From Candidatus Pacearchaeota archaeon (GTDB taxonomy: Archaea > Nanobdellota > Nanobdellia > Pacearchaeales > GW2011-AR1): a stretch of DNA of 64,000 nucleotides. The stretch covers positions 5,184 through 69,183 of the forward strand of contig CAXNIJ010000006.1 in the NCBI GenBank assembly GCA_964202455.1. The letters are read 5' to 3'. The notes beneath the pieces were generated by a model. That model ran no database searches. It saw nothing but the letters and a program-made list of their open reading frames with translations, and was not told where the DNA came from. The translations under genes were made by a program, and so were the position numbers. Positions 7,545 through 62,935 of this stretch are shown piece after piece (position 1 is the first letter of the stretch; each line of letters begins with the position of its first letter).

Positions 7545-8960
7545 TTATCCTTTTATAACCGCTAGAGGTTTTAGACGAGCAACTATTTTTCCAATACCTA
7601 AAGCGTCAGATACTCGGACTACTTCATTAACATCTTTATATGCTTCTGGAGCCTCTTCAACTATTCCTTTTCTGCTTCCTGCTTTAATTATTACGTTCTT
7701 TATGGCTAGTTCTTTTTCTATTTGTTCCGGAGTGAAGTTTTTGATGGCGTAAGAGCGAGAAAGAACACGACCTGCTCCATGCGCAGTACTACCTAAAGAA
7801 AGTTCTTCTGCTTTTTTTGTGCCGACTAAAACGAAAGAAAATGTTCCCATACTTCCTGGAATAAATATTGGGCAACCTATTGAACGATAAATTGACGGAA
7901 TTTCTTTTCTTCCTGGACCAAAGGAGCGTGTTGCGCCTTTTCTATGAACACAAAGTGTGCATGTCTTCCCTTCAATTTGGTGTTCTTCGAATTTTGCGAT
8001 ATTATGAGCGATGTCATAAAGCAAATCTACTTTTATTTTTGGAAAGAATTTTGCAAAACTTTTTCTAATTTGATAAGTTATGAGCTGGCGATTAACAAAC
8101 GCAAAATTTGCTGCGGCAGCCATCGCTGCACGATAATCTTTTCCTAAAGGAGAATTGATTGGCGCACATATTAATTCTCTATCTGGAAGATCTTTAAAAC
8201 CATATTGCTTTTCCATTTTTATTATGTAGTCTGATGCGACTTGATGACCCAATCCCCTACTACCTGAGTGAACCATTATTACTATTTGACCCATTTTTAG
8301 ACCGAAAGCTTTCGCTATTTCTTTATCTATAATGCTTTCTACTTCTTGGATTTCTAGAAAATGATTTCCTGAACCTAAACTTCCTAGTTGTGAACGTCCG
8401 CGCGCTTTTGCGCGTGGGCTCACTTTAGAGGCTTCTGCTCCTACAATGCAACCATCATCTTCTATTCTTTTCTGATCTTCTAGAGTAGCATATTTTTTCT
8501 CGACTGCCCAAGCAACTCCTTTCTCTAAGACACGATTTAATTCTTTGTCATCGAATGAGAATTCGCTTTCCTTGCCGACGCCAGATGGAACATCTCGTGC
8601 AATCTGAGAAATTATTTCATTACGTTTAGCAAGAAATTCTTCTCTTTGTAGGGAAGTAATAAGGAGACGGACTCCACAATTTATGTCGTATCCTACGCCC
8701 CCTGGAGAGATAATGCCTTTTTCTAGGTCAAATGCAGCAACGCCTCCAATGGGGAAGCCGTAGCCTTGGTGAGCGTCGGGCATCGCAATTGATTCTCCCA
8801 CAATCCCTTTTAATTGTGCAACGTTTCTAACTTGTTCTAGAGTTTTATTTTCTTTTTGAATATTTTTCATTAAAGTATCTGAAGCAAATATTTTACCCGG
8901 AACTAACATTTTTCCTTCTTTCTCTATTTGCCAGATATTTTCTGCGATCTTCTTGACCAT
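7545..8960 (-). CDS. rtcB: RtcB RNA 3'-phosphate ligase (tRNA splicing ligase)
   Basis: Full-length 471 aa. MPDAHQGYGFPIGGVAA, GGVGYDINCGVR, GSGNHFLE, HSGSRGLGHQV and HGAGR motifs. Confidence 0.95.
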   Translation of the reverse strand: MVKKIAENIWQIEKEGKMLVPGKIFASDTLMKNIQKENKTLEQVRNVAQLKGIVGESIAMPDAHQGYGFPIGGVAAFDLEKGIISPGGVGYDINCGVRLLITSLQREEFLAKRNEIISQIARDVPSGVGKESEFSFDDKELNRVLEKGVAWAVEKKYATLEDQKRIEDDGCIVGAEASKVSPRAKARGRSQLGSLGSGNHFLEIQEVESIIDKEIAKAFGLKMGQIVIMVHSGSRGLGHQVASDYIIKMEKQYGFKDLPDRELICAPINSPLGKDYRAAMAAAANFAFVNRQLITYQIRKSFAKFFPKIKVDLLYDIAHNIAKFEEHQIEGKTCTLCVHRKGATRSFGPGRKEIPSIYRSIGCPIFIPGSMGTFSFVLVGTKKAEELSLGSTAHGAGRVLSRSYAIKNFTPEQIEKELAIKNVIIKAGSRKGIVEEAPEAYKDVNEVVRVSDALGIGKIVARLKPLAVIKG

Positions 8961-19036: not shown

Positions 19037-22000
19037 ATGAATGAATTTAATGTAGCAATACAGAAAAAAGTAGGACCATGTGTTATTCTTGCTGGTGCTG
19101 GGACCGGAAAGACACATGCAATTGTAGAAAAGATAAAATATTTAATTGAACATAATCTCTATGAACCTGAAAAGATTGTATGTATTACTTTTTCTAATGA
19201 GGCAGCTAATAATTTACTTTTAAGAGTGCAGAAGAGTTTACATTTACAAGCTGGAAAAGAGCCAATTATAAAGACATTTCATGCTTTCTCTGCTGATATT
19301 TTAAGAAAGCATGGAGAGAATATTGGAATTAGTGAAAAATTTAAAATTCTTGATCCTGATCAGGCGATGGTAGTTTTACATAGAAATCTGAAAGTGCATG
19401 TAAATTATTGCCAGAAATATATTGGGACTATTGGAACAGCAAAAGATCTGGGAATTAGTTTAGATAATTTTAGAGAATATCTAGATAGAAAAATGAAAGA
19501 ATATGATGGAATAGATTTACAGAAAAGGATTGAAAGTTTGAATTTCGAACTTCAAACTCTTCATTTAAGACAAACTACAAATAAGAAGAAATTTCTGGTT
19601 GAAGAAATTAAAGTAATTAGGCAGATACTCGAGATAAAGAAATTTGTGTCTTCATGGAATGCCTATGAAAAAATGAAAATAAAAGGAAATTATCAAGATT
19701 ATTCCGATCTCAATGCTAATGCTCTAAGATTACTTGAGAAATTTCCTGAGATTTCTCAAGATTACTCATATGTTATTGTTGATGAATTTCAGGATACAAA
19801 TAAATTGCAGCTTGATTTCCTTGTTAAACTTGCACCCCATAAAAATATTACTATCGTGGGAGATATGAATCAGAGTATTTATCGATTTCGTGGAGCATAT
19901 AGCAAAAATTTAGATTTTTTTAAGAAAGAGTTTAATGTTTTAGATAGTGAAGTATTTACTCTTTCACACTCATATCGCTCTCCAAATAGTGTTTTACGAA
20001 TTGCACATCAATTGATATCAAAAAATTATAATTCAATTGATGAATGTTTTTTTGTTGAGAACGCACATCAAAGAGAAGGAGAGAAGGTAGAAATTTTTGA
20101 ATTGAAAGATATGAAAGAAGAAACTAGAAAGGTGATTGAATTAGTCCAGAGAGAAAGAGATAAGGGGGTTCAACTGGAAGAGATTTGTGTTATTTTTAGA
20201 ACACATCAATACGGGAGAATGATTAAACGTTCACTAGAGTATGCGGGAATTCCATATTATGCAGTTTCTCGTGCTTCATTAATAAAGCAAAAATCTGTAA
20301 AAACTATTTATGATTATTTAATTATTTTGGATAAGTTGAAAAAAGGATCTAATGGAGGAGAACAAGCTTGGTGGGATTTATTATATTTGATGAATTTTTC
20401 TAGTGAAGATTTGATGGTACTTGGAAAGAATATTCAGAAATTGTCTAAGAAGAATAGAAGAGTTGAGGGAGAAACAGTGAAAATTATTGAGAAAGAAGAA
20501 GGCGGTGCGTTTTCCTCTTTATTTATGGATAGTTTGAGAAGAGTTAAATTAAGTGATTCTGGAATGCTCGCTATAAAGATTCTTCTTGAGAAGATACAAC
20601 TTATGATGCCCTTACTTGATAAACCTCTCTCTGAGGCATTACAAGAAATGTATAAACTTTCAGGATTATTAAATGAACAGAGAACTCTTGAAGAAAAAGA
20701 AGTGATGATGAATTTACAGAAATTTTATGACGTTGCTAAAATGCATGAAGACATCTACGATTCTGATGTTTCTAATTTTCTTTATTATTTAGAGGTATTG
20801 CAGAATTTAGGAATTGAAATTGAAGCAGCTAAACTTGAAGAGGCAGGAGTTAGACTAATGACTTGTCATGCTACTAAAGGTTTGGAATATCAAACCATTA
20901 TTTTGACTAATTTTGCTCAAGGAAGATTTCCAATTGAAAGATATATCGGAAATTCACTTATACCTACTGAACTGCTTCCAGAAGTAAGAGAAGAATTGAA
21001 GAACATTTCTGTTGATGAGAAAGAAGATTTTGTGATAAATTATGAAAGACACCATCAGCTTCTAGAAGAGAGGAGACTTGCATATGTTTCATTTACTCGC
21101 GCTAAAGAAAAACTTATTCTTACTCTTGCTAAAGAATATGGTGGGAAGAAGACCTCACCTTCAGTATTTCTTAGTGAATTTAATTATTTGCAAAATCCCG
21201 ATGTTTCTTTTGTAAAAGATGAAAATCAGCTTTATGTTGAACCTGAAGCGGAAATAAAGACCGGATTTCAATTTGCAAATTCTTTAGAATCCCAGAATTT
21301 TGATAATGTTCTTAATACTCTTGCGCAAGAGAATGGAAAGAATAAAGAAGAAGAGAAAGTGCAAAGACTTTCCCCTTCTGCCCTATTACTCTTTGATGAT
21401 TGTCAAAAAGAGTTTGAATATAAGTATATTTATCGAATGCCTGAAAGGAAGACTTTCTCTTGGGAAGCAATGCAACTAGGAAGTTTTGTTCATCTTGCTC
21501 TTGAAAAAGGGGTGGCTTTGAGACTACAAAATATTGAAGACTTCTTGTTTATGGCTAGACAACTAAGCATGAATGATGAATGGTCTGGAGTTGTTTTTGA
21601 AGAAGCAGAGACTTTAATTCGAGTGTTTTTTGAGAGGAATAAGGGCAAATATGATGAGAAGACAAAGACTGAACAATATTTGCCTTTGAAACTGGGAGAC
21701 GTTCAGTTTATGGGTTTTGCAGATAGAATTGATTTTCTTTCAGATGGAAGTATTTCTATTATTGATTATAAGACTGGGAAAACGCCTATCTCTCCCAAAG
21801 ATAGAGATTGGCAGTTAGGATTTTATGCACTTGCTGCTGGAGAGAAATATGGTCGAGTTAAGAAAGTTGTTTTGGATATGTTAAAGCAAGAGAAGCCTCT
21901 TGAATTTGAATTTGATGAAAAAGGAAATGCTACTTGCACCAGTTCAAAGTGGATTGATGGATTTAGTCTGCAAGAGGTTAAAAAGCAATTGATTGAAGCT

Positions 22001-22096
22001 GCTGAGGCGATCCAGAAGGCCTATAAGGAAGGATTTAAGGCTTGCAGTATTGAGAAGAATTGCGAGTTCTGTAATGAATACGTGTACGGCATATAA
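19037..22096 (+). CDS. UvrD/PcrA-type SF1 helicase fused to a C-terminal Cas4/AddB-like PD-(D/E)xK nuclease with a Cys cluster
   Basis: AGAGTGKTH (Walker A), VDEFQDTN, SYRSP, CHATKGLEYQ and VSFTRAKEKL. C-terminus has GFADRIDFLSDGSISIIDYKTGK (nuclease core) plus Cys at LLFDDCQ and C-x5-C-x2-C (CSIEKNCEFC). Confidence 0.85.
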   Translation: MNEFNVAIQKKVGPCVILAGAGTGKTHAIVEKIKYLIEHNLYEPEKIVCITFSNEAANNLLLRVQKSLHLQAGKEPIIKTFHAFSADILRKHGENIGISEKFKILDPDQAMVVLHRNLKVHVNYCQKYIGTIGTAKDLGISLDNFREYLDRKMKEYDGIDLQKRIESLNFELQTLHLRQTTNKKKFLVEEIKVIRQILEIKKFVSSWNAYEKMKIKGNYQDYSDLNANALRLLEKFPEISQDYSYVIVDEFQDTNKLQLDFLVKLAPHKNITIVGDMNQSIYRFRGAYSKNLDFFKKEFNVLDSEVFTLSHSYRSPNSVLRIAHQLISKNYNSIDECFFVENAHQREGEKVEIFELKDMKEETRKVIELVQRERDKGVQLEEICVIFRTHQYGRMIKRSLEYAGIPYYAVSRASLIKQKSVKTIYDYLIILDKLKKGSNGGEQAWWDLLYLMNFSSEDLMVLGKNIQKLSKKNRRVEGETVKIIEKEEGGAFSSLFMDSLRRVKLSDSGMLAIKILLEKIQLMMPLLDKPLSEALQEMYKLSGLLNEQRTLEEKEVMMNLQKFYDVAKMHEDIYDSDVSNFLYYLEVLQNLGIEIEAAKLEEAGVRLMTCHATKGLEYQTIILTNFAQGRFPIERYIGNSLIPTELLPEVREELKNISVDEKEDFVINYERHHQLLEERRLAYVSFTRAKEKLILTLAKEYGGKKTSPSVFLSEFNYLQNPDVSFVKDENQLYVEPEAEIKTGFQFANSLESQNFDNVLNTLAQENGKNKEEEKVQRLSPSALLLFDDCQKEFEYKYIYRMPERKTFSWEAMQLGSFVHLALEKGVALRLQNIEDFLFMARQLSMNDEWSGVVFEEAETLIRVFFERNKGKYDEKTKTEQYLPLKLGDVQFMGFADRIDFLSDGSISIIDYKTGKTPISPKDRDWQLGFYALAAGEKYGRVKKVVLDMLKQEKPLEFEFDEKGNATCTSSKWIDGFSLQEVKKQLIEAAEAIQKAYKEGFKACSIEKNCEFCNEYVYGI

Positions 22097-22747: not shown

Positions 22748-23678
22748 GACATATGTCCTACCACCCTAAAATAGCTTATCGAATGCAAAATAAATGTCTG
22801 CTGGGACTTTCCCATACAGACTTGTATGAGGTCTGAAATGATTATATCTCATTCTAAATGTTTGTAAATCATTATTACAAAAGGGCATTTCCATATCCAT
22901 TGTTTGAAACAATCTTTCTACTTTTCCAGTTGTTGTTGGACTATGAATTGCTGAACGAATATGTTTAATCCCTCTTCTTCTACACCAAGTATCAAACTTA
23001 CTTTTCTCACTCGTCAATCCATATACACTTCCATTATCAGTTAAAATTTCTCTTGGTTTTCCATGAGACTTAATCAGTTCATCTAAGGCAATTATCACAT
23101 CATCAGTTGTAATATTCTTTAGTTGAATCAGTGCTAAAGAATATCTGGAGCAATCATCTATGATCGATAGAGTATAGCAGTATCCCTTTTCTTGTTCGTC
23201 TGTATGGTCTATTTGCCATAGAGAGTTAGGATGTTCTCTCTGCCAACGAATATATTTTATGCGTTTTCTCCTTCTTGTTGATGGCCTACATAGGTTGTTA
23301 TTAGATATAACTCGCTTAATAGTAGAAATAGAAACTTCTTCTATTCTTGATTTAATTTTATCAGCACTCCATCCAGTTCTATTTCTGATTGAGATAATTT
23401 TATCTTCAACTTCTTGATTTATCTTATAATGGATAGTTTTTGGTCTTTTTGATTTATCTCTCAAGTCCCATTCATTAGTTTCTAATCTTTTACTCCATCT
23501 TTTTAAAGTTCTTATTGTAACTTCATAACTAAACTTTACAAGAATAATCTTCCTACATGGATTATATGAATTACCTTGAATTCTTAGCTTAAAGAATTCT
23601 TTTCTAATCTCTTCTTTCTTCATTAAATATGAAATAAATCATTGCAGAACTAATTTTCGGTTGCTAGTGACATATGTC
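22748..23678 (-). mobile_element. IS element (IS481/IS3-like, single DDE transposase) with GACATATGTC-containing termini
   Basis: The transposase ORF is flanked by GACATATGTCCTACCACC (left) and the reverse complement of GGTTGCTAGTGACATATGTC (right). This is an imperfect inverted repeat. I found no clear target-site duplication. Confidence 0.55.
22766..23623 (-). CDS. DDE transposase (HTH plus rve integrase core)
   Basis: WQIDHTD, ILTDNGSVY and HSPTTTGKVERLFQT form a D, D, E triad with rve-like spacing. N-terminal HTH-like region. Confidence 0.85.
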   Translation of the reverse strand: MKKEEIRKEFFKLRIQGNSYNPCRKIILVKFSYEVTIRTLKRWSKRLETNEWDLRDKSKRPKTIHYKINQEVEDKIISIRNRTGWSADKIKSRIEEVSISTIKRVISNNNLCRPSTRRRKRIKYIRWQREHPNSLWQIDHTDEQEKGYCYTLSIIDDCSRYSLALIQLKNITTDDVIIALDELIKSHGKPREILTDNGSVYGLTSEKSKFDTWCRRRGIKHIRSAIHSPTTTGKVERLFQTMDMEMPFCNNDLQTFRMRYNHFRPHTSLYGKVPADIYFAFDKLF

Positions 23679-43091: not shown

Positions 43092-44973
<1,882 letters not shown>

Positions 44974-46232: not shown

Positions 46233-47261
46233 CTATCTCTTAGACTTAGAATATTTCTTTGTAGATTTTTCAGTTTCAAGAATCATTTGGGCAACATCAA
46301 CTAGACGATGAGAATAGCCCCATTCATTGTCATACCACCCGGCAATACTAATCATATCGTCAATTACTTGAGTAAAATGAGAGTTGAATATTGCTGAATG
46401 AGTATTTCCAATTATATCGGTTGAGACCAGAGGTTCATCTGAATATTCTACAATGCCTTTGTAATCTGTTGATGCTTTTCTTTTGAATACTGCGTTGACA
46501 TCTCTTGGAGAAACTTTCTTTTCTACTTTAGCCACTATACTGGTAATTGAACCGTCTATAACTGGAACGCGTAGTGCATAGCCATCTATTTTTCCTTTTA
46601 GTTCTGGAATACTTTCCACTACTGAAATTGCCGCCCCAGATGTTGTAGGGATAATATTTATTGCCGCTGCCCTTCCGCGAGCCATATCCCCCTTATCATG
46701 AGAATCTATTAGATGCTGTGTCGAAGTATATGCATGGGTTGTAATAAAAAATGCACTCTTTAGATTATAAGCTTCATGAAGAATTTTAATCATTGGCGCA
46801 GTGCAATTGGTTGTGCAACTTCCAGCAGAGATAATTTTATGTTCTTTTTTAAGAGACGCACCATTTACGCCTGGAATTATTGTGCAGTCAGCGTTTTTTG
46901 CAGGTGCTGAAATTAGAACTTTCTTTGCTCCTGCCTTAATATGTTTCTCTGCATCTTCTTTTTTTGTGAATAATCCTGTACATTCCACAACTAAATCAAT
47001 TTCTTCTTTTTTCCATGGAAGCTTAAGAGGATCTGTCTCATGAACTGTGAGGAACTTTCTTTTTCCTATTGTCAAATATTTTCCGTCGTGAGAAATTGGT
47101 TCTTGGAAAGGAGTATGAATAGAATCGTGCTTTAAAGTGTAAACAACATAATCTGGATCTCCGAGTTCATTTATTACAATATTCCAAGGAACATTTCTCT
47201 TTAAACAGGCTTGAAGAAAGAGCTTACCGATCCTACCTAGACCATTAATAGCTACGTTCAT
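46233..47261 (-). CDS. gap: Glyceraldehyde-3-phosphate dehydrogenase, type I (bacterial/eukaryal-like)
   Basis: VAINGLGRIGK, SAGSCTTNC (active-site Cys), WYDNEWGYS. Confidence 0.9.
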   Translation of the reverse strand: MNVAINGLGRIGKLFLQACLKRNVPWNIVINELGDPDYVVYTLKHDSIHTPFQEPISHDGKYLTIGKRKFLTVHETDPLKLPWKKEEIDLVVECTGLFTKKEDAEKHIKAGAKKVLISAPAKNADCTIIPGVNGASLKKEHKIISAGSCTTNCTAPMIKILHEAYNLKSAFFITTHAYTSTQHLIDSHDKGDMARGRAAAINIIPTTSGAAISVVESIPELKGKIDGYALRVPVIDGSITSIVAKVEKKVSPRDVNAVFKRKASTDYKGIVEYSDEPLVSTDIIGNTHSAIFNSHFTQVIDDMISIAGWYDNEWGYSHRLVDVAQMILETEKSTKKYSKSKR

Positions 47262-57123: not shown

Positions 57124-58748
57124 GCAGATACCTCTTGATTTAAAGCGTTTCTTTTTCTTGTTAGATGGGCTTTACGTGCAGCTAATTGCATCTTGGAAAT
57201 TCCATAAGAAGTTATGATTTGCTCATCGCTGGCGCACCCATTTTCAAGAAACTCGATAATTTGCCCCTCTTCTACGTCTGTTGGCTGATAAAGATTTGAG
57301 ACTGTATCTTGTGAAGTTCCATTCTGTCTACTCAATGTTGCTTTGTGCCCTGCAAGTTCAAAAGTGGTTAAGTGATATTTATTGAGAATTTCTGCTTCTT
57401 GTTTACCCCTTGATAAGTCTTCACGAACTTTTTCTCCTAATGATTTTATTTGAATTGTTTCCCTCTCTGCCTGCACGTAATCATTTTCTTTTAAAACTAA
57501 TTCGCTGAATTCTCCTATACGTTGCTCAAATCTATTTCTATCTCCGATGAGGTATATACCGCTATATTTTAAAACTTCTTCTAGTGATGGATGATTTTCT
57601 ATGAGTCTAGAATTGCCTAGAGTCGTGGCAATACCATCCCCTATTCTTAAAACGTCAACTCCCTGACTAATATCTCGAGTTTTATAGCCTTCATGAAAAA
57701 TAAGTTGATTAGGGGCAACCCCATCTAAACCAATTTGAATATGCATGTCTTTGAAAATATCTGGTCGACTATTTAATAAGAGAAAGTCGAAAAACATAGG
57801 ACTTCCATTGTCCGAGACATATCTGCCTTTATGAAATTTACTAATAAAACGAGGTCTTTGTATATGAGCAATTTCTGTAAAAAGATATAATGAATTTCTA
57901 AGTCCGTCATTATTCTTAAATTCTGAAGATAAAATTTGCATTAATCCTGTTCTGAGTAATCCGTCTGCAGTTAATATAAATTCCGCGTGCTCTTTAGGAT
58001 TTTTTGATAGTTCTAAAAAATTATGCGGATAATTAGCTTTAATTGCAAGAGTATCAATAAACTTTCTTGAAGCAAATGCTTCTAATGATTTTAGACTTTC
58101 ATCTATTTTGTCGGCACTTGTAAGATAACGTAGTTCTAGAGAAATCATTTTATCTCTAACATCATCAAGAACGACCCTATCTTCTGTAAACATATTAAAA
58201 TCCATTTGATCGTCAATTCCATTATTTAATTCTTGATTATTTTCTAGAAAACTTCTGACTGTTCCTCCTCCAGTGAAATAAGTTATTGATTTTTGATAAT
58301 GATCTAGTCTAACTTCACTCTCTCGAGAACCGTAGAAATTTGTACCCAATATACAACGAGGACTCGCTCTTCCTTGTTGAAAGAGAGTGCTCACAGTTAG
58401 TGCTTCTTCATCTTTTAACTGAGATTGAAAGTCAAGATTAATTATATCGAATTGCTCTCCAGGTTGATCAAAAAAAGATCTTGCACTTGTAGGATGAAGA
58501 TTGATACCTAAATCTAGACTTTTTATTTTTTTGTATGTATCTGGATTATGTTCTATTCCCCATATTCTGTCTCTACGAATGCCTAATGAGTCATAAACTC
58601 TTGTAATTTCTAACCCTTCATGACCTGGAAGACAAGCTACTTTTAGACTTCTGCGCCTTTTTCCATCTGGAAATTGTTGCAGAATAAACTCGCATAATTT
58701 TGCATGATAGACTTGTTTTGTCTCGAAGTCATAAGTATCTTTTCTCAT
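57120..58748 (-). CDS. Island paralog P1 (542 aa), first gene of the operon
   Basis: MRKDTYDFETKQVY...LKVACLPGHEGLE...IWGIEHN...FDIINLDFQSQ...GTNFYGSRE. GRYVSDNGSPMFFDF. Two C-terminal HTH-like modules (GKQEAEILNKYHLTTFELAGHKATLSR and EGQIIEFLENGCASDEQIITSYGISKMQLAARKAHLTR). TAGGAG 9 nt before the ATG. Confidence 0.8.
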   Translation of the reverse strand: MRKDTYDFETKQVYHAKLCEFILQQFPDGKRRRSLKVACLPGHEGLEITRVYDSLGIRRDRIWGIEHNPDTYKKIKSLDLGINLHPTSARSFFDQPGEQFDIINLDFQSQLKDEEALTVSTLFQQGRASPRCILGTNFYGSRESEVRLDHYQKSITYFTGGGTVRSFLENNQELNNGIDDQMDFNMFTEDRVVLDDVRDKMISLELRYLTSADKIDESLKSLEAFASRKFIDTLAIKANYPHNFLELSKNPKEHAEFILTADGLLRTGLMQILSSEFKNNDGLRNSLYLFTEIAHIQRPRFISKFHKGRYVSDNGSPMFFDFLLLNSRPDIFKDMHIQIGLDGVAPNQLIFHEGYKTRDISQGVDVLRIGDGIATTLGNSRLIENHPSLEEVLKYSGIYLIGDRNRFEQRIGEFSELVLKENDYVQAERETIQIKSLGEKVREDLSRGKQEAEILNKYHLTTFELAGHKATLSRQNGTSQDTVSNLYQPTDVEEGQIIEFLENGCASDEQIITSYGISKMQLAARKAHLTRKRNALNQEVSA

Positions 58749-58886
58749 AGATGTGCTCCTACACGATTTTTACAGTTTGTTACCATGAAGAGTGAGGACA
58801 ATATCCCTTTTTAAACCTTACTTTAGTAACCATTTTATAGTGACTACATCCGAAAGATTTATAAATGAACTTCGCACAGAAAAATT
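58749..58886. promoter_or_regulatory. Divergent promoter region between the two island operons
   Basis: TTTATAAAT (58858-58866) is centred 25 nt before the plus-strand ATG at 58887, which implies a leaderless or near-leaderless mRNA. On the minus strand TTTAAAAA (58808-58815) lies ~60-67 nt before the P1 ATG, which has its own GGAG. Confidence 0.45.
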
Positions 58887-59348
58887 ATGAATAATGGAGA
58901 TTTTTTTGGTAGAAAAGCACAAGAGGTTGCTAAAGATTTAGTTGGTAGAATAATAATTAGAAAACTTGATTCTGGAGTATATGCTGCATTGATAAGTGAA
59001 GCGGGAGCATATGAAGGTCTTGTTGGAGCAGATCCACAAGGTCCACGCAAAGGAATGTTCTATAATTCCGGAAATATATTTCTGATGCCTCATAGAGGAC
59101 ATAATCTGTTTAATATTGCTTGTGGTGACAGTGGTCCTGCATGCGTTGAAATTCGTGAACTACAAGGAGAGAAAAGAATTGAAGGTTCTGGAGCCATTAC
59201 AAATTATCTAAAAATTGGAACTCTAGATAATAAACCTCTTGGAGATAAGACTGGATTATATGTATCTGATGAATCTTATTTTTCTGGTAAAATTAATCGC
59301 TCTGGTGGTTCTGCTGATAATTGTAAAGGAATTTATTCCTTTGCTTAG
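58887..59348 (+). CDS. Short AAG/Mpg-family (3-methyladenine DNA glycosylase fold) protein, catalytic Glu apparently absent
   Basis: FFGRKAQEVAKDLVGRIIIRK...ALISEAGAYEG, MFYNSGNIFLM...LFNIAC, GPACVEIRELQ and GSGAITNYLKIG parallel the FF.R....VA..LLG..L....G.IVETEAY, MF..PG..YVY...NI, GA.VLIRA.EP and GPgkL..ALgI blocks of the family. Confidence 0.65.
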   Translation: MNNGDFFGRKAQEVAKDLVGRIIIRKLDSGVYAALISEAGAYEGLVGADPQGPRKGMFYNSGNIFLMPHRGHNLFNIACGDSGPACVEIRELQGEKRIEGSGAITNYLKIGTLDNKPLGDKTGLYVSDESYFSGKINRSGGSADNCKGIYSFA

Positions 59349-59356
59349 GTGTCACC

Positions 59357-61699
59357 ATGACTTATGAATTAAGGCCTTATCAACTATTGGCCGTTCAAAA
59401 ACAATTGAATGATAGAAGAATTATTCTTGCAGATGATATGGGCATGGGAAAATGTTTAGAAGTTATTGCGGCTAAACCTTTAATTGATGAAGAAATTGGA
59501 AAAAGGCCTTCTTTAATTATCTCTCCTTCAGCAGTTATACCTCACTGGGAAGAAGAAATAAGAAGATGGCACTATATGGGGGACAAAACTTGTATAACAA
59601 CTTTACAAATGGGCAATCTAGTTAGCGACTTGAAAAATGCTCAAGGAGCAGAATTTGTTGTTGCACCTTATTCACTTTTATCTTGTTTAGGCAATCATCC
59701 AGAAGCTCTTGAATCTTTAAAAAAAATGCAATTTGGTCAGGGAGTACTCGATGAAGGACATTTAACTAGTAATCCAAAATCTTTACGTACTCAATCTGCT
59801 CGCGCGTTATTTCATGATATTCCTTACTTATCTATCCTTACTGGAACACCTATCCCTAATTCTTTAATAGATATATATTCACAGTTAAATTTGCTTGATA
59901 GAGAAGCATTTCCAATTCAAGAATTAAATGCGGATACCGTGGTAGATGAATTTTATCAGATTATTCGTAATAGGCCTCATCTTGTTAGAGATATATTAAG
60001 AGAGCGTATGCTCCGTAGAACTGCAGATAAATATCTTGGAAAGAAAATGCCTCGACTTGACTCTCGTTCTATTGACGTTAGTCTGACTAAAGAACACGAA
60101 GCCGTATATGGGGCAATCTATGAAAACGATGACATTCCAGTTAGTAATAAACTATGGGAGCTAATGAAAGTTTCTCTTGATCCCAATCTAGCGAACCCAA
60201 ATTACCTTCCCGGATCTCTAGGACAAAGACTTGGAAAGATGGATTCTTGTACATTCGATAGACTACATGAAGAAGTAGATCGAGTGGTAAAGAATGGGGG
60301 AAAATTTTTATGTTTTACAGATTTAAAAACTGGAGTAATTCCAGAAATTCAAAAACGTTTTGCTGAATATGGAATACTTGCTGTAACACAAGAAGTTTCT
60401 TCTAATTCTCTTAAAGGAGAAATTAGTCCTCGTGAAGAAATGCGTAGAAAGTTCCAATACGATAGTAAATATAAAATGATGGTCGCAACAAATGTAATGG
60501 ATGTTGGAGTAGATCTCACTGGTGCTACGACTATTGGTCACCTTACCTTGCCTTTTATGCCTGCAGTAGTAGATCAGCGTATAAGCCGATCTTTAAGAGT
60601 AACTGCAGAAATTGAGAAAGAGAGTTTAGAATCTCTTATTTTTACTCCAGTTATGAGTAATGGTGCGCCTACAATAAATGAAGGAGTTGTACAATTACTA
60701 GATGATAAGAGGAGAATTATTAATTTTATAGTTAATTCTCCTGAAAATATCACTCTCGATGATTTAAATCAGATTAGAAATGGACACCCTGAAAATTCTC
60801 CTACTTTGGCTGGATTTTTAAGTCCTAGGTCTTCCATGGATTTTCATTTGGGTTCTTTGAGAGGTAAAGGGGGAACTAAAATTCTTTCTGAATATCAAGA
60901 TACTCCCCATATTGCAAAAGATCTGGCAAAAGCATACATTAAATATTGGGATGGATATTATGGTGGAAACTCTGCTAGTTTGAGTGCCGCAGTAATTCGT
61001 AAATTACTCGGTGAAAATTTATCTGAAAAATCAATTGTAGATATTTGTTGTGGACCATTTTCACTCTCGCGAAGGTTGCAAGTGCCCGTAACTAACCTAG
61101 ATTTAAATGAATATATGCTTGAAGCTGGAATGACTCTTGAGAATCAAGGAATCGTGCCTAGAGGAAATATTGCTCACAGAGGTTTAGCAAATAATCTTCC
61201 CTTTAAAGATAGAGAATTTGACCTTGCTAATTGCTCTCTTGCTTTACATATGTCTACTCTTGCAGATGTTTCTGGATATGGAATGAGCGAGAGAGAAGAG
61301 ATATTTAGAGAAGCACGTAGAGTAGGAGACTTGTATGTATTTACTTTACCGCATACCGTCATTCATAGAAGAGATTTACCTACTTTTAATGAAGGATTAG
61401 CACATATTGGTTGGAAAGTCTTGCCTCAGACAGGATTTTATAAGGGAGCTGGAGACTCAAGATTTAAAGTTTTTCTTGGAGCTTTACAAAGAAATGTTAA
61501 TTATTCTGAAGATGCTGTTCCAGAAGAGCTCTTAAGATGGACTATGGATGATCGTTTAGAAAAGAAAAGAAAAGGTAGAACTACTTCTGCTAGAAAATCT
61601 TGTAATCCAAAGAAGAAGAAAGATCAATTTGAACTGGTACCTAAATTTGTCCATGAAGATTCTGGTGAAATTTTAAATTTGGAGGCGTTAAATGAGTAG
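59357..61699 (+). CDS. SNF2-family ATPase fused to a C-terminal class I SAM-dependent methyltransferase domain
   Basis: LRPYQ, ILADDMGMGKC (motif I, Cys instead of Thr/Ser), VLDEGH (DExH), LTGTPIPNS, ATNVMDVGVDLTG, DQRISRSLR (motif VI). C-terminal IVDICCGPFS (MTase motif I-like), NLDLNEYML and LPFKDREFDLANCSLALHM (Methyltransf_11-like). Confidence 0.8.
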   Translation: MTYELRPYQLLAVQKQLNDRRIILADDMGMGKCLEVIAAKPLIDEEIGKRPSLIISPSAVIPHWEEEIRRWHYMGDKTCITTLQMGNLVSDLKNAQGAEFVVAPYSLLSCLGNHPEALESLKKMQFGQGVLDEGHLTSNPKSLRTQSARALFHDIPYLSILTGTPIPNSLIDIYSQLNLLDREAFPIQELNADTVVDEFYQIIRNRPHLVRDILRERMLRRTADKYLGKKMPRLDSRSIDVSLTKEHEAVYGAIYENDDIPVSNKLWELMKVSLDPNLANPNYLPGSLGQRLGKMDSCTFDRLHEEVDRVVKNGGKFLCFTDLKTGVIPEIQKRFAEYGILAVTQEVSSNSLKGEISPREEMRRKFQYDSKYKMMVATNVMDVGVDLTGATTIGHLTLPFMPAVVDQRISRSLRVTAEIEKESLESLIFTPVMSNGAPTINEGVVQLLDDKRRIINFIVNSPENITLDDLNQIRNGHPENSPTLAGFLSPRSSMDFHLGSLRGKGGTKILSEYQDTPHIAKDLAKAYIKYWDGYYGGNSASLSAAVIRKLLGENLSEKSIVDICCGPFSLSRRLQVPVTNLDLNEYMLEAGMTLENQGIVPRGNIAHRGLANNLPFKDREFDLANCSLALHMSTLADVSGYGMSEREEIFREARRVGDLYVFTLPHTVIHRRDLPTFNEGLAHIGWKVLPQTGFYKGAGDSRFKVFLGALQRNVNYSEDAVPEELLRWTMDDRLEKKRKGRTTSARKSCNPKKKKDQFELVPKFVHEDSGEILNLEALNE

Positions 61700-62756
61700 T
61701 GTGCTTGATAGTATTAAAGAAGAGATTCGTCAACTTAGGATAAATGGGGGCGAAGTTTGCGATATTTTTAATCAAATGAAAAAAAAAGGAATTGAAATGT
61801 CTTATAGTCAATGTTCTGCAATTGCAGCATGGGCTAGTCCAAAACTTGCAGTAAAGAGAAAAGTACAATTACCTCATAACGCGGATTCTAAATTGGGAAA
61901 AGAGGATAAATTTCTCCCTATCTTAAAAACTAGAGTAAAAAATAAAAACCCTGATGAACTGCCAAAAAGAATGGAAGAAAAAATATCTACTAATGATCAA
62001 ACTTGGGCAAATAATGAAGGGCCATTACTTACAAAAGGCGAAGCTGTCGGATTACTTTCGCAAGGATATAATCCTAAAAAAATGGCGGGATATTACAAGG
62101 GACACAGTGAAGGAGAATTACGTGCATTAAGTGCCCATATTGAAATGGGGACATATGTAAGAAATCCTGCATTACTCGAAGGTAATGGAAAGGGTAAAAA
62201 TGGAGAAGTTAAAGTAATTCGCGAGAAAGAAGATTTAGTACCATTTCTTAAAAAAAATCAATTGGCCAGAGACATGTCTTTACTTGCCTTAACTCTTGGA
62301 GAAGATGGTGGACAAATTGAAGAAGCATTGATTGCATTATATGGTGGAAAATTTAAGAATAGAGATGAATTACACAGACTTCTTGAGGAAACAAGAGAAG
62401 ATGTTGCTCAAATTATTCAGGAAGGCGTTACAAATTTAGGAGTTTATCTTGGAGGATATAGTTTATTCGATAGAAGAATGACTCCAATTATCTTGGGGGA
62501 TGTTGTAAGTGCAATACCTTTAGATAAAATCACGCCTCCGCTAGAAGCGATGTTACTCGGCGTTGCAGGCGGAATATATGATCCCCTGTTTAGCGCGAAC
62601 CCTAAAAAGACAATTGAAGATTTGAAAACTAAATCTAGATCAAGTGAAGGATTGACGACAAAGATTTGTGAAGTACTTTATAGAAAATATGAGAATGCTT
62701 TGAATATTGGAGAGAGACTAAAGAGATATGATCGATTGAGAGAGAAAGTAGAATGA
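61692..62756 (+). CDS. Island protein X (354 aa) carrying the same HTH-like modules as the paralogs
   Basis: N-terminal KEEIRQLRINGGEVCDIFNQMKKKGIEMSYSQCSAIAAWASPKLAVKRK matches the C-termini of P7 and P3. Second module is GEAVGLLSQGYNPKKMAGYYKGHSEGELRALSAHIEMGTY. 8-nt overlap with the SNF2 gene; GGAGG before the ATG. Confidence 0.75.
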   Translation: MSSVLDSIKEEIRQLRINGGEVCDIFNQMKKKGIEMSYSQCSAIAAWASPKLAVKRKVQLPHNADSKLGKEDKFLPILKTRVKNKNPDELPKRMEEKISTNDQTWANNEGPLLTKGEAVGLLSQGYNPKKMAGYYKGHSEGELRALSAHIEMGTYVRNPALLEGNGKGKNGEVKVIREKEDLVPFLKKNQLARDMSLLALTLGEDGGQIEEALIALYGGKFKNRDELHRLLEETREDVAQIIQEGVTNLGVYLGGYSLFDRRMTPIILGDVVSAIPLDKITPPLEAMLLGVAGGIYDPLFSANPKKTIEDLKTKSRSSEGLTTKICEVLYRKYENALNIGERLKRYDRLREKVE

Positions 62757-62935
62757 AATTCCAACAAGTAATTTTAGATAAGAAACCTGTAAGACAAAGT
62801 AAAGAGTTTTTACATCGAATACATTCGTGCCCACAAATTATAAGTGGGCGTAACTTTGACTATCTTGATGGAACTTCAATGAGAAGGAAAACTGATCAAG
62901 ATATGAATCTTGAAAAATATTTAAAACTTAATTAG
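62753..62935 (+). CDS. Small coupled ORF (60 aa)
   Basis: ATGA overlap with protein X. No motif recognised. Confidence 0.4.
   Translation: MKFQQVILDKKPVRQSKEFLHRIHSCPQIISGRNFDYLDGTSMRRKTDQDMNLEKYLKLN

What the first reader, a model, noticed from the sequence alone, without database searches (positions are those of the whole stretch)
58887..59348. Truncated AAG/Mpg-fold protein whose catalytic glutamate seems replaced by glycine; a possible modified-base reader
The 153-aa first gene of the plus-strand operon aligns by eye to alkyladenine/3-methyladenine DNA glycosylases (AAG/Mpg) over four blocks (see the feature entry). At the family's V-E-T-E-A-Y block it reads I-S-E-A-G-A-Y. When the Tyr residues are aligned, the residue two positions before Tyr, which is the general-base Glu in human AAG as I recall it, is Gly. 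The protein is also ~40-50 aa shorter than typical bacterial Mpg. A base-flipping fold without the water-activating Glu would bind a flipped (modified) base without excising it. That fits a sensor role next to an SNF2 motor and MTase-like proteins. It could instead use another residue and be an active glycosylase for an unusual base.
Basis: partly seen in the sequence, partly recalled or inferred. Interest (0 to 1): 0.65.

Follow-up and report, generated by a model that had tools for sequence, protein, structure and literature searches.

The report
Rewired mini-AAG glycosylase in SNF2–methylase module
This small gene encodes a compact relative of the DNA-repair enzyme AAG that has lost its usual catalytic glutamate but carries a new one nearby, and it is always found beside a DNA-motor/methylase fusion gene in tiny archaea, which suggests an undescribed DNA-marking or DNA-defence system.

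Summary
ORF 58887-59348 (153 aa) is a genuine AAG/Mpg-fold protein: Pfam PF02245 scores above its gathering threshold, the AF2 model has pLDDT 96, and TM is 0.74-0.81 to human AAG. Gly40 sits exactly where AAG has its general base, Glu125. The protein is not truncated. It is a complete, miniaturised domain with internal loop deletions, under purifying selection (dN/dS 0.1-0.2).

It belongs to an undescribed short clade: His136 loop deleted, Tyr159→Met, intercalating Tyr162→Arg, with Tyr127, Asn169 and Arg182 kept.

In every locus with enough sequence (about 18 distinct loci, mostly from genomes labelled Woesearchaeota or Nanoarchaeota), this clade lies in a module with an SNF2-helicase/class-I-methyltransferase fusion and one or more multi-HTH proteins.

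The "inactive reader" reading is weakened. Of the 19 module copies lacking Glu125, 18 have Glu at the AAG Leu180 position (Glu88 here), next to C1′ and Arg182. A divergent module subgroup keeps Glu125 and has Met at 180. Family-wide, the two states are mutually exclusive.

My best reading, at moderate confidence, is a base-flipping enzyme whose catalytic carboxylate has moved. It would act as the base-excision or base-interrogating subunit of a Type-I-restriction-like system. A non-catalytic reader remains a serious rival.

The parts
58887..59348 (+). Miniaturised AAG/Mpg-fold protein (153 aa), first gene of the plus-strand operon. Key codons: Glu38 58998-59000 (=AAG E123), Gly40 59004-59006 (=E125), Tyr42 59010-59012 (=Y127), Met67 59085-59087 (=Y159), Arg70 59094-59096 (=Y162), Asn76 59112-59114 (=N169), Glu88 59148-59150 (=L180), Arg90 59154-59156 (=R182).
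59357..61699 (+). SNF2-family ATPase (SNF2-rel_dom + Helicase_C, residues ~1-470) fused to a class-I SAM methyltransferase domain (Methyltransf_11, residues ~555-660). It starts 8 nt after the Mpg-like stop codon. Motifs present: Walker A GMGKC, DEGH, TGTPIPN.
   Evidence: found with the Mpg-like gene in every locus that has enough flank
61692..62756 (+). 'Y' protein (354 aa): an N-terminal HTH-like region plus a ~165-aa C-terminal domain conserved in bacterial-type and archaeal loci (HMM E 1e-55 to 1e-87). It overlaps the SNF2-MTase stop by 8 nt, which suggests translational coupling.
   Evidence: relatives carry HNH_repeat and many HTH Pfam hits
62753..62935 (+). Small 60-aa ORF overlapping the Y stop codon. 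It is conserved in L001 (65% identity). Possible fourth operon gene, function unknown.
58851..58865 (+). Possible archaeal-type BRE/TATA element (cgaaagaTTTATAAA) about 25 nt upstream of the ATG. No Shine-Dalgarno sequence precedes the ATG. This is an inference only, in an AT-rich genome.
   Evidence: sequence; no sigma-70-type promoter stands out
47925..58748 (-). Divergently transcribed array of six paralogs (735, 513, 513, 624, 475 and 542 aa) plus one 234-aa ORF (53205-53909). Each paralog has an RsmD-like class-I methyltransferase fold with a helical insert and C-terminal HTH-like modules. This accessory array is specific to the window's sub-lineage (also in L001, L004, L020).

Best explanation
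The gene encodes a complete, miniaturised AAG-fold nucleotide-flipping protein whose active site has been rewired, not simply inactivated. Shown: the canonical general base (Glu125) is Gly. The His136 loop that closes the base pocket is deleted. Tyr159 is Met and the intercalating Tyr162 is Arg. The stacking Tyr127, the pocket residue Asn169 and the water- and phosphate-binding Arg182 are kept. A new, nearly invariant Glu (Glu88) occupies the Leu180 position beside Arg182. Inferred: Glu88 takes over the carboxylate role next to C1', either by activating water or by stabilising the oxocarbenium ion or a cationic base. The protein would therefore still cut (or at least tightly interrogate) a flipped purine, with a specificity different from repair Mpgs. 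Shown: it is the constant partner of an SNF2 ATPase fused to a class-I methyltransferase and of one or more multi-HTH DNA-binding proteins. Inferred system logic, by analogy with Type I restriction-modification: the HTH arrays choose DNA sites, the SNF2 motor translocates and its methyltransferase domain writes a mark, and the AAG-like subunit flips bases and excises either the unmarked or the marked purine. The resulting abasic sites would replace endonucleolytic cuts, as in restriction glycosylases.
For: Fold and register. Clade signature (E/G/Y/-/M/R/N/R against the canonical E/E/Y/H/Y/Y/N/R). Glu at the Leu180 position in 18 of 19 module copies, while position 125 is never Glu and position 123 varies (E/Q/I). 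The two copies in the divergent module L040 keep Glu125 and have Met180. So 20 of 21 module copies have exactly one Glu at 125 or 180. Family-wide exclusivity: canonical members are E125 in 130/130 and L180 in 128/130. Among non-canonical members the 2x2 table is [[1,28],[62,41]], Fisher p=9e-9, and the traits changed at least 7 and at least 6 times on an NJ tree. Leu180 lies 3.3 A from C1', against 3.7 A for Glu125, in an AF3 AAG-DNA model, and Arg182 coordinates the catalytic water. Purifying selection, dN/dS 0.11-0.21. A Gly125/Asp180 member sits alone next to Endonuclease V, a hypoxanthine-repair context, which suggests this configuration can be a working enzyme. Obligate synteny with SNF2-MTase: searching from the Mpg side, 6 of 8 contexts, plus L040; searching from the SNF2-MTase side, 4/4 genome loci and 7/7 metagenome loci with upstream sequence. 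Partner proteins are HTH arrays. Genes overlap or abut (8-nt gap, 8-nt overlap). Precedent for base excision as restriction: R.PabI family (PMC4357717, PMC10273834).
Against: No biochemical data exist. I could not superpose coordinates, so Glu88's reach to C1' or the water is inferred from strand periodicity and from a published AF3 model of AAG, not measured on this model. One module copy (L010) has neither Glu125 nor an acid at 180, and 41 of 103 Glu125-less family members have no acid at 169/180. Position 125 is highly variable in the clade (41 changes), which fits loss of function as well as relocation. A pocket Glu could serve base recognition only. The fused methyltransferase is a generic Methyltransf_11 type with no detectable affinity to known DNA methyltransferases, so DNA methylation is itself unproven. 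No nuclease or AP-lyase gene is in the core module. PADLOC recognises no system here, only generic SNF2 similarity. The module is not obviously in defence islands in most loci. The statistics are not phylogenetically corrected.
Confidence: 0.45

Rival explanations
1. Non-catalytic base reader. The AAG fold flips a base, modified or unmodified, into the pocket without cutting. It acts as the sensor that licenses or directs the SNF2 motor and methyltransferase. Glu88 would be a recognition residue, for example for a cationic N-methylpurine or an exocyclic amine.
For: Glu125 is Gly or Ala in all 19 copies of the main module type. In 7 of them Glu123 is also lost (Gln), and in 2 it is Ile. The pocket wall carrying His136 is deleted. 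Position 125 evolves freely in the clade. 9 of 51 M-R-clade members have no acid at 123/125/180. L010 lacks both carboxylates yet sits in a module. The tight coupling to a writer (methyltransferase) and a motor fits a reader logic. From memory, inactive glycosylase homologs that bind DNA lesions exist (S. pombe Mag2).
Against: Glu125 and an acid at 180 are mutually exclusive, and one of them is retained in 20 of 21 module copies. That is what relocation of a catalytic residue predicts. A pure binding role does not predict it. Arg182, the partner of the catalytic water, is kept (R in 18 and K in 1 of 19). A Gly125/Asp180 member lies next to Endonuclease V in a repair-like context.
Confidence: 0.3
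2. Ordinary base-excision-repair Mpg of a reduced genome. It removes alkylated or deaminated purines, and its position next to the SNF2-MTase gene is incidental or reflects a repair-coupled remodeller.
For: Sources annotate relatives as 3-methyladenine DNA glycosylase. Pfam places it in Pur_DNA_glyco. One clade member (P0015) is stand-alone beside Endonuclease V and a purine nucleoside phosphorylase-family gene.
Against: Synteny with SNF2-MTase holds in every locus with enough sequence, across proteins only ~30-45% identical and in unrelated flanking contexts. All six functional positions are essentially invariant in 130 canonical Mpgs but four are changed here. A canonical-site Mpg is what appears in a clear alkylation-repair context, next to MGMT-like and EVE genes (L041). 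All NCBIfam Mpg equivalog models score far below threshold.
Confidence: 0.08
3. The AAG-like fold has been recruited for something other than DNA base flipping. It could be a structural or regulatory subunit that docks onto the SNF2-MTase or HTH proteins, or it could bind RNA or free nucleotides. The fold is related to the tRNA-binding C-domain of Met-tRNA formyltransferase.
For: The next-best structural neighbour is the FMT C-domain. The fused methyltransferase and the upstream paralogs resemble RNA or small-molecule methyltransferases (RsmD, Trm1, CmoM, YcgJ) more than known DNA methyltransferases.
Against: The residues that in AAG contact the flipped nucleotide and the DNA backbone are the best-conserved ones in the clade: the Tyr127 equivalent, Asn169, Arg182, and an invariant residue at the intercalation position. 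The partners are an SNF2 dsDNA translocase and HTH arrays, both DNA-directed. FMT similarity is marginal (E=0.04, TM 0.3-0.4).
Confidence: 0.1

Closest known systems
Human AAG / bacterial Mpg (Pfam PF02245, 3-methyladenine/alkyladenine DNA glycosylase)
   Same: Same fold (TM 0.74-0.81). Same I-x-E-T-x-A-Y strand. The stacking Tyr127, Asn169, Cys178 and Arg182 equivalents are retained, and a residue is conserved at the minor-groove intercalation position.
   Different: Glu125→Gly, His136 loop deleted, Tyr159→Met, Tyr162→Arg, Leu180→Glu. About 40 aa shorter through internal deletions. Below all NCBIfam Mpg thresholds. Embedded in an SNF2-MTase operon instead of being a stand-alone repair gene.
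Restriction glycosylases (R.PabI / HALFPIPE family; PMC4357717, PMC10273834)
   Same: Conceptual analogue: a base-excising enzyme paired with a methyltransferase, in which abasic sites replace endonucleolytic cuts. This family is also found in archaea.
   Different: Unrelated fold (HALFPIPE against AAG). R.PabI systems are simple two-gene Type II-like pairs with a conventional DNA methyltransferase and have no SNF2 motor or HTH-array proteins. Methyl-sensitive excision is untested here.
Type I restriction-modification (HsdS/HsdM/HsdR) and SNF2-containing defence systems (DISARM DrmD, Dpd DpdE/J, Zorya ZorD)
   Same: Division of labour between a DNA-specificity component, a methyltransferase and an SF2 translocase. 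The SNF2 domain scores against the ZorD, DpdE and DrmD models.
   Different: No PD-(D/E)XK, HNH or PLD nuclease. The methyltransferase is a Methyltransf_11 type fused to the motor. No other component of those systems is present. PADLOC finds no system.
Dnmt5 (fungal SNF2-DNA methyltransferase fusion; bioRxiv 10.1101/2020.01.05.895227)
   Same: A single polypeptide combining an SNF2 ATPase with a methyltransferase. In Dnmt5, ATP hydrolysis is coupled to base modification.
   Different: Dnmt5 carries a C5-cytosine DNMT domain and is eukaryotic. Here the domain order is SNF2 then Methyltransf_11, the substrate is unknown, and there is an obligate AAG-like partner.
Glycosylases and homologs lacking the canonical catalytic carboxylate (E. 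coli TAG; S. pombe Mag2), recalled from memory and not checked here
   Same: They show that loss of the family's canonical acid can mean either a specialised active enzyme for labile cationic lesions (TAG) or a non-enzymatic DNA-lesion binder (Mag2). Those are the two live readings here.
   Different: Both are helix-hairpin-helix proteins, not AAG-fold, and neither is part of a motor-methyltransferase operon.

Membership tests
AAG/Mpg (Pfam PF02245 Pur_DNA_glyco) | Sequence match to the family HMM above the curated threshold | tested here: met
   36.2 bits against a gathering score of 27, E=5e-9, but only profile positions 1-95/181. Longer coverage (1-146 to 1-158) for clade relatives.
AAG/Mpg (Pfam PF02245 Pur_DNA_glyco) | AAG fold (mixed alpha/beta single domain with a DNA-intercalating beta-hairpin) | tested here: met
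   AF2 pLDDT 96.2. Nine best Foldseek PDB hits are all human AAG, TMq 0.71-0.81, prob 1.0.
AAG/Mpg (Pfam PF02245 Pur_DNA_glyco) | General-base Glu125 (second Glu of E-T-E-A-Y) | tested here: not met
   Gly40. Gly or Ala in 19/19 module orthologs. Glu in 130/130 canonical members.
AAG/Mpg (Pfam PF02245 Pur_DNA_glyco) | Base-stacking Tyr127 | tested here: met
   Tyr42, conserved in all module copies.
AAG/Mpg (Pfam PF02245 Pur_DNA_glyco) | His136 and Tyr159 forming the other wall of the base pocket | tested here: not met
   His136 loop deleted. Tyr159 is replaced by an invariant Met67.
AAG/Mpg (Pfam PF02245 Pur_DNA_glyco) | Intercalating Tyr162 | tested here: not met
   Arg70, nearly invariant in the clade. 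Arg could still plug the gap, but that is an inference.
AAG/Mpg (Pfam PF02245 Pur_DNA_glyco) | Asn169 and Arg182 | tested here: met
   Asn76 is invariant. Arg90 is R in 18 and K in 1 of 19 module copies.
AAG/Mpg (Pfam PF02245 Pur_DNA_glyco) | NCBIfam equivalog/subfamily score for DNA-3-methyladenine glycosylase | tested here: not met
   Best is TIGR00567 at 36.4 bits against a cut-off of 116. All others are further below.
AAG/Mpg (Pfam PF02245 Pur_DNA_glyco) | N-glycosidic bond hydrolysis of alkylated or deaminated purines | not testable with these tools
   Needs enzyme assays.
Restriction glycosylase R-M systems (R.PabI type) | HALFPIPE-fold glycosylase | tested here: not met
   The fold is AAG.
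Restriction glycosylase R-M systems (R.PabI type) | Adjacent cognate DNA methyltransferase whose mark blocks excision | tested here: inconclusive
   A methyltransferase domain is always adjacent, fused to SNF2. It is a generic Methyltransf_11 type with unknown substrate.
Known anti-phage systems with SNF2 helicases (Zorya, Dpd, DISARM, BREX) | Presence of the other signature components of the system | tested here: not met
   PADLOC hits only the SNF2 domain (ZorD, DpdE, DrmD models). None of the other seven neighbouring proteins hits anything.
Class-I SAM methyltransferases (upstream paralog array) | Rossmann-like seven-strand methyltransferase fold | tested here: met
   N-terminal 150 residues at pLDDT ~90, plus the beta6-beta7 hairpin. 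All top 50 Foldseek hits are methyltransferases, with the best superposition on RsmD-like 2ift (TMt 0.62, rmsd 3.7 A).
Class-I SAM methyltransferases (upstream paralog array) | Canonical SAM-binding GxGxG motif and a catalytic motif IV (e.g. DPPY) | tested here: inconclusive
   Motif I reads P-G-x-E-G-x-E and motif IV reads L-D-[FY]-x-[GS]-[QP]. The invariant acidic residue at the end of beta2 (G-I-E) is present. No Pfam hit. Profile-profile comparison with the fusion's methyltransferase domain is not significant.

The most novel reading that the evidence does not exclude
The Mpg-like protein, the SNF2-methyltransferase fusion and the multi-HTH proteins together form a previously unrecognised, Type-I-like epigenetic self/non-self system of DPANN archaea. 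In it an ATP-driven motor writes an unusual purine methyl mark. An AAG-fold glycosylase with a relocated catalytic glutamate restricts DNA by base excision according to that mark. This would be the first AAG-fold restriction glycosylase and the first case of catalytic-residue migration in this enzyme family.
Probability: 0.25. Interest if true: 0.85.

Novelty: new variant of a known kind. Interest (0 to 1): 0.68.

Why it matters
AAG/Mpg is treated as a uniform repair family. In 130 canonical members collected here, all six functional positions examined are essentially invariant.

This work shows a sizeable, unannotated sister clade in which the textbook catalytic Glu is gone. A carboxylate reappears at a different pocket position, in a mutually exclusive pattern. 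That makes a clean test case for active-site migration in a DNA glycosylase.

The clade is also locked into a conserved operon with an SNF2 motor fused to a methyltransferase and with arrays of HTH proteins, in ultra-small archaea whose DNA-modification and defence biology is almost unknown.

If the module is a base-excision restriction or epigenetic system, it would extend the restriction-glycosylase concept beyond the single HALFPIPE family. It would also give a prokaryotic counterpart to motor-coupled methyltransferases such as Dnmt5.

If the protein is instead a non-catalytic reader, it would be, to my knowledge, the first AAG-fold base reader. Either result can be tested directly with a 153-residue protein that models at pLDDT 96.

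Tried and rejected
1. Word-indexed search with the single protein found only two relatives. Genome and metagenome scans with the 3-sequence alignment found none. The exhaustive HMMER search and scans seeded from the SNF2-MTase C-terminal region were what opened up the family.

2. Two ~2,500-aa hits with '10 matching stretches' looked like tandem AAG domains. They are YadA-type trimeric autotransporter adhesins, a repeat artefact.

3. N-terminal extensions of longer clade members carry no Pfam domain, so fusions gave no clue.

4. PADLOC, PHROGs, Pfam and NCBIfam give nothing for the Y protein or the upstream paralogs. Profile searches of PDB sequences were not significant; the best was an RsmD-like methylase at E=0.2. 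hhalign of the paralog N-domain against the fusion's methyltransferase domain gave probability 0.3. Only the structure model plus Foldseek established the methyltransferase fold.

5. The fused methyltransferase domain could not be assigned a substrate. The best PDB relatives are uncharacterised class-I methyltransferases, and the Rrp8/nucleomethylin hit at E=0.03 is too weak to use.

6. No copy of the SNF2-MTase was found on IMG/VR viral contigs. The Mpg alignment was too diverse for a viral scan. BFVD holds only one giant-virus protein with this fold. A phage origin is therefore not supported.

7. Host identity could not be settled. It has a GroEL equivalog and type-I GAPDH, but an archaeal-type TrpRS and RtcB. 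No names are held in the protein collection. Labelled relatives are Woesearchaeota or Nanoarchaeota.

8. Promoter and terminator scans were uninformative.

9. Single-linkage clustering at 40% identity merged nearly everything and could not count independent lineages. It was replaced by NJ tree plus Fitch counts.

10. Literature searches found no description of this clade or module.

11. The antisense ORFs at 58859-59050 and 58938-59102 were disregarded as chance ORFs inside a conserved gene.
Full report
**1. What is at the coordinates**

ORF 58887-59348 (+) starts with ATG and encodes 153 aa. The next gene starts 8 nt after its stop codon, at 59357. This is a 780-aa protein with SNF2-rel_dom, Helicase_C and Methyltransf_11 domains. 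The stop of that gene overlaps by 8 nt the start of a 354-aa ORF (61692-62756). A 60-aa ORF follows, overlapping again.

Upstream, on the other strand, lies an array of six paralogous genes (47925-58748) with no Pfam, NCBIfam, PADLOC or PHROG match. G+C is a uniform ~34% across the window.

**2.

- Pfam Pur_DNA_glyco scores 36.2 bits (gathering score 27) but covers only the N-terminal half of the profile. NCBIfam's Mpg models are all far below their cut-offs.
- phmmer against PDB sequences finds only human AAG. It aligns I-S-E-A-G-A-Y with I-V-E-T-E-A-Y. Counting along the full-length chain 7xfh_K confirms that the second Glu is Glu125 and the Tyr is Tyr127, so Gly40 replaces the general base.
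- The same register comes out of MAFFT alignments with 150 and 262 homologs.
- An AlphaFold2 model built on a 64-sequence alignment has pLDDT 96.2 and pTM 0.91. Its nine best PDB neighbours are all human AAG (TM 0.71-0.81). The next hit is the Met-tRNA formyltransferase C-domain at E=0.04.
- Glu125 deprotonates the attacking water. Arg182 helps hold that water. Tyr127 stacks on the flipped base and Tyr159 packs perpendicular to it (PMC12347255).

**3. Miniaturised, not truncated**

Relative to AAG the protein lacks three things: the loop that carries His136, a ~25-residue segment after the Arg182 strand, and a few short loops. The C-terminal strands are present and confidently modelled. Canonical Mpgs collected here have a median length of 192 aa, and the non-canonical ones 159 aa. 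dN/dS against the three closest orthologs is 0.11-0.21, although dS is near saturation. This is a maintained gene, not a decaying one.

**4. It belongs to a distinct, undescribed clade**

An exhaustive HMMER search of 1.84 billion representatives gave 677 hits. Aligned with AAG, the hits fall into two groups.

| AAG position | Canonical Mpg (n=130) | Short clade containing this protein |
|---|---|---|
| Glu123 | 130/130 | variable |
| Glu125 | 130/130 | variable |
| Tyr127 | 130/130 | aromatic |
| His136 | present | loop deleted |
| Tyr159 | present | Met |
| Tyr162 | present | Arg |
| Asn169 | 129/130 | kept |
| Leu180 | 128/130 | see section 6 |
| Arg182 | 130/130 | kept |

A third group has Gly/Ala125 with Thr180 and Asp169. 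Members of the short clade are rare metagenomic singletons. The few that carry names are called DNA-3-methyladenine glycosylase from Woesearchaeota or Patescibacteria. Eight full-text literature searches found no description of the clade.

**5. The genomic association is obligate**

Starting from the Mpg-like side, contexts for nine distinct proteins were examined.

- Seven lie beside an SNF2-Helicase_C-methyltransferase fusion: the window's own clade (L001, L004) and L006, L008, L010, L014 and L018.
- One (P0015) stands alone next to Endonuclease V.
- One (P0016, with an N-terminal extension) sits in a restriction-modification island.

Starting from the other side, I scanned with an alignment of the fusion's family-specific C-terminal half.

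- The genome scan found 7 loci, labelled Candidatus Woesearchaeota, Nanoarchaeota, and one 'Methanosarcinales'. The metagenome scan found 13 more.
- HMM scans of six-frame ORFs show the Mpg-like gene in all 4 new genome loci and all 7 metagenome loci that have sequence upstream.
- The 7 loci without it are all cut by the contig end exactly where the gene would be.
- A more divergent 141-aa subgroup (L040) is also in an SNF2-MTase module, with two Mpg-like copies.

After removing duplicates this gives about 15 loci of the main type and 3 variant loci. The flanking genes differ from locus to locus: ThrRS/eIF-1A, fibrillarin/Nop, aldolase/PfkB and GluRS. So the module moves as a unit.

**6. A carboxylate has moved**

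This is what changes the interpretation. The 19 module-associated sequences (17 distinct) were tabulated.

| AAG position | Residue in the 19 module copies |
|---|---|
| 125 | Gly ×16, Ala ×3, never Glu |
| 123 | Glu ×10, Gln ×7, Ile ×2 |
| 180 | Glu ×18, Leu ×1 (L010) |

- Neither glutamate of the E-T-E block is conserved. In the window protein the Leu180 position is Glu88, in the block C-V-E-I-R.
- The position lies two residues before Arg182 on the same β-strand (model strand 85-93). Its side chain should therefore face the same way as Arg182.
- In a published AF3 model of AAG on abasic DNA, Leu180 CD2 is 3.3 Å from C1′. Glu125 OE2 is 3.7 Å away and Arg182 is 4.8 Å away (PMC13299579).
- The two L040 copies do the opposite: they keep Glu125 (I-T-G-T-E-A-F) and have Met at 180. 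So do five other members of that 141-aa subgroup, with Leu or Met at 180.
- Overall, 20 of 21 module copies have exactly one Glu at 125 or 180. None has both.

Family-wide, among the 132 non-canonical members, a carboxylate at 169 or 180 is present in 62 of 103 that lack Glu125. It is present in only 1 of 29 that keep it (Fisher p=9e-9, not phylogeny-corrected). On a rough NJ tree, presence of Glu125 changed at least 7 times and an acid at 180 at least 6 times. The pattern therefore does not rest on one event.

The Patescibacteria relative in a plain alkylation-repair context (L041) sits next to an MGMT-type DNA_binding_1 gene and an EVE-domain gene. It has the fully canonical site.

**7. The partners**

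- *SNF2 ATPase.* It has intact motifs: G-M-G-K-C/T, D-E-x-H, T-G-T-P and Q-R-x-x-R.
- *Fused methyltransferase domain.* It keeps a G-P-F-S motif-I variant, an invariant Asp at the end of β2, and the L-P-F…F-D-L…C-S-L-A-L-H-M block typical of Methyltransf_11. Its closest solved relatives are uncharacterised class-I methyltransferases. Its substrate is unknown.
- *Third component.* In the main module type it shares a ~165-aa C-terminal domain of unknown fold (HMM E 1e-55 to 1e-87). In all variants it carries arrays of helix-turn-helix repeats. Examples are six HNH_repeat units in each L010 protein, many HTH families in L023, and CI-repressor-type HTH in the ~78-aa repeats of L040 and L014. It is often multi-copy: 3 in L021 and L023, 4 in L014, 2 in L010 and L040.
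- *Upstream six-paralog array.* The window's sub-lineage adds this family, which has only 8 clusters among 5.8 billion proteins. An AF2 model is confident for residues 1-150 and for the 316-343 hairpin. Foldseek shows a class-I methyltransferase fold closest to RsmD/YhhF-like enzymes. Motif IV reads L-D-[FY]-x-[GS]-[QP]. Their C-termini share a ~57-aa HTH-like module with the N-terminus of the Y protein.

**8. How it most likely works**

*Shown:* an AAG-fold protein that keeps the residues used for stacking the flipped base, lining the pocket, holding the phosphate and water, and plugging the helix; that has a Glu at one of two positions flanking C1′; that is under purifying selection; and that is genetically locked to a dsDNA motor-methyltransferase and to HTH arrays.

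*Inferred:*
- It flips a purine from duplex DNA into a pocket opened by loss of the His136 loop.
- Glu88 supplies the carboxylate chemistry, so the protein is probably still a glycosylase with altered specificity.
- Within the module, the HTH proteins target DNA, the SNF2 domain translocates, the methyltransferase writes a mark, and the AAG-like subunit interrogates or excises bases according to that mark.
- This is Type-I-R-M logic with base excision in place of a nuclease, as in the R.PabI restriction glycosylases (PMC4357717, PMC10273834).

I put this at 0.45. The non-catalytic reader model stays at 0.30 for four reasons:
- L010 lacks both acids.
- Many clade members have no acid at these sites.
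- Position 125 drifts freely.
- A pocket Glu could equally be a recognition residue, for example for a cationic N-methylpurine.

Ordinary repair (0.08) is disfavoured by the obligate synteny and by the contrast with L041. A non-DNA role (0.10) is disfavoured by the DNA-directed partners.

**9. Limits**

- I could not access model coordinates, so the Glu88 geometry is argued from strand periodicity and from a published AF3 model of AAG.
- The association statistics are not phylogenetically corrected.
- The methyltransferase substrate is unknown.
- The host domain is ambiguous. It has a GroEL equivalog and type-I GAPDH, against an archaeal-type TrpRS, RtcB, and a TATA/BRE-like element 25 nt before the ATG. 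The labelled relatives are DPANN archaea.
- No viral copies were found.
- Nothing here demonstrates defence.

**10. Verdict**

The catalytic Glu is indeed missing, but the evidence points more towards a rewired enzyme than a dead reader.
- The protein is a new variant of the AAG family. Together with its partners, it defines a conserved and apparently undescribed three-component module.

Noticed in passing
window 47925-58748 (-): Six tandem paralogs (735, 513, 513, 624, 475 and 542 aa) of an extremely rare family, with 8 clusters in 5.8 billion proteins. They have an RsmD-like class-I methyltransferase fold, a large helical insert between beta5 and beta6, unusual motifs (P-G-x-E-G-x-E; L-D-[FY]-x-[GS]-[QP]; Y-x-S-x-x-G-S-P-M-x-x-D) and C-terminal HTH-like modules. 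The family is found only in the window's sub-lineage (L001, L004, L020).
   Followed up: partly
window 53205-53909 (-): A 234-aa ORF (called as 206 aa in L005) sits inside the paralog array and overlaps the end of the 624-aa gene. It has no family hit, but its product is 59% identical to a partial ORF in L004, so it is probably a real island gene.
   Followed up: partly
window 61692-61870 (+) and the C-terminal ends (3' ends on the minus strand) of the 624-aa and 735-aa paralog genes (53822-55696 and 47925-50132): A ~57-aa HTH-like module (E-I-R-x-L-R…Q-C-x-A-x-A-A-W) is shared at 50-52% identity between the N-terminus of the Y protein and the C-termini of the 624- and 735-aa paralogs. It could be a common docking or DNA-binding module.
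   Followed up: no
window 62753-62935 (+): A 60-aa ORF overlaps the stop of the Y gene and is conserved in L001 (65% identity). It may be a fourth operon gene of unknown function.
   Followed up: partly
window 59357-61699 (+), residues ~28-32: The SNF2 Walker A motif reads G-M-G-K-C (Cys where SNF2 proteins normally have Thr) in the window, L001, L004, L006 and L008. L018 and L010 have Thr.
   Followed up: no
window 58851-58865 (+): The sequence cgaaagaTTTATAAA, about 25 nt upstream of the Mpg-like ATG, resembles an archaeal BRE/TATA element for a leaderless transcript. There is no Shine-Dalgarno sequence before this ATG, while GGTG precedes the next gene. It could be chance in an AT-rich genome.
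   Followed up: no
window 43092-44720 (-), 46233-47261 (-), 5796-6920 (+), 7545-8960 (-): The host signals are mixed. There is a bacterial-type GroEL equivalog (777 bits) and a type-I GAPDH, alongside an archaeal-type TrpRS and RtcB. The closest genome-labelled relatives of the module are Woesearchaeota and Nanoarchaeota. The host domain was not resolved.
   Followed up: partly
L040 632-10051: This variant module has two 89%-identical 141-aa Mpg-like genes alternating with 1110-aa and 732-aa proteins built of ~78-aa HTH-type repeats. Those proteins are homologous to the four tandem paralogs of L014. These Mpg-like copies retain Glu125.
   Followed up: partly
family-wide (proteins P0055, P0058, P0071, P0082, P0084, P0090, P0093, P0112, P0118 and others): A second non-canonical Pur_DNA_glyco clade has Gly/Ala at 125, Thr at 180 and Asp in place of Asn169. 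This is another possible relocation of the pocket carboxylate. Its genomic contexts were not examined.
   Followed up: no
L041 7001-8623: A canonical-site Mpg (172 aa) in a genome labelled Patescibacteria is followed by an 88-aa MGMT-type DNA_binding_1 gene and an EVE-domain gene. This forms a compact alkylation-repair/modified-base-reader cluster.
   Followed up: no
L012 8001-16882: A 293-aa clade member has a ~140-aa N-terminal extension with no Pfam hit. It sits in an island with two Endonuc_Holl genes, MPN635_N, MmeI_Mtase, Eco57I and a T5orf172/ResIII helicase. This is a different, restriction-modification-like context.
   Followed up: no
window 22766-23623 (-): There is an IS481-family transposase gene (NCBIfam E=3e-56, below the equivalog cut-off). 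It is the only obvious mobile-element gene in the window and lies far from the module.
   Followed up: no
window 19037-22096 (+): A 1019-aa protein fuses a UvrD-type helicase to a C-terminal PD-(D/E)XK nuclease domain (AddA-like).
   Followed up: no
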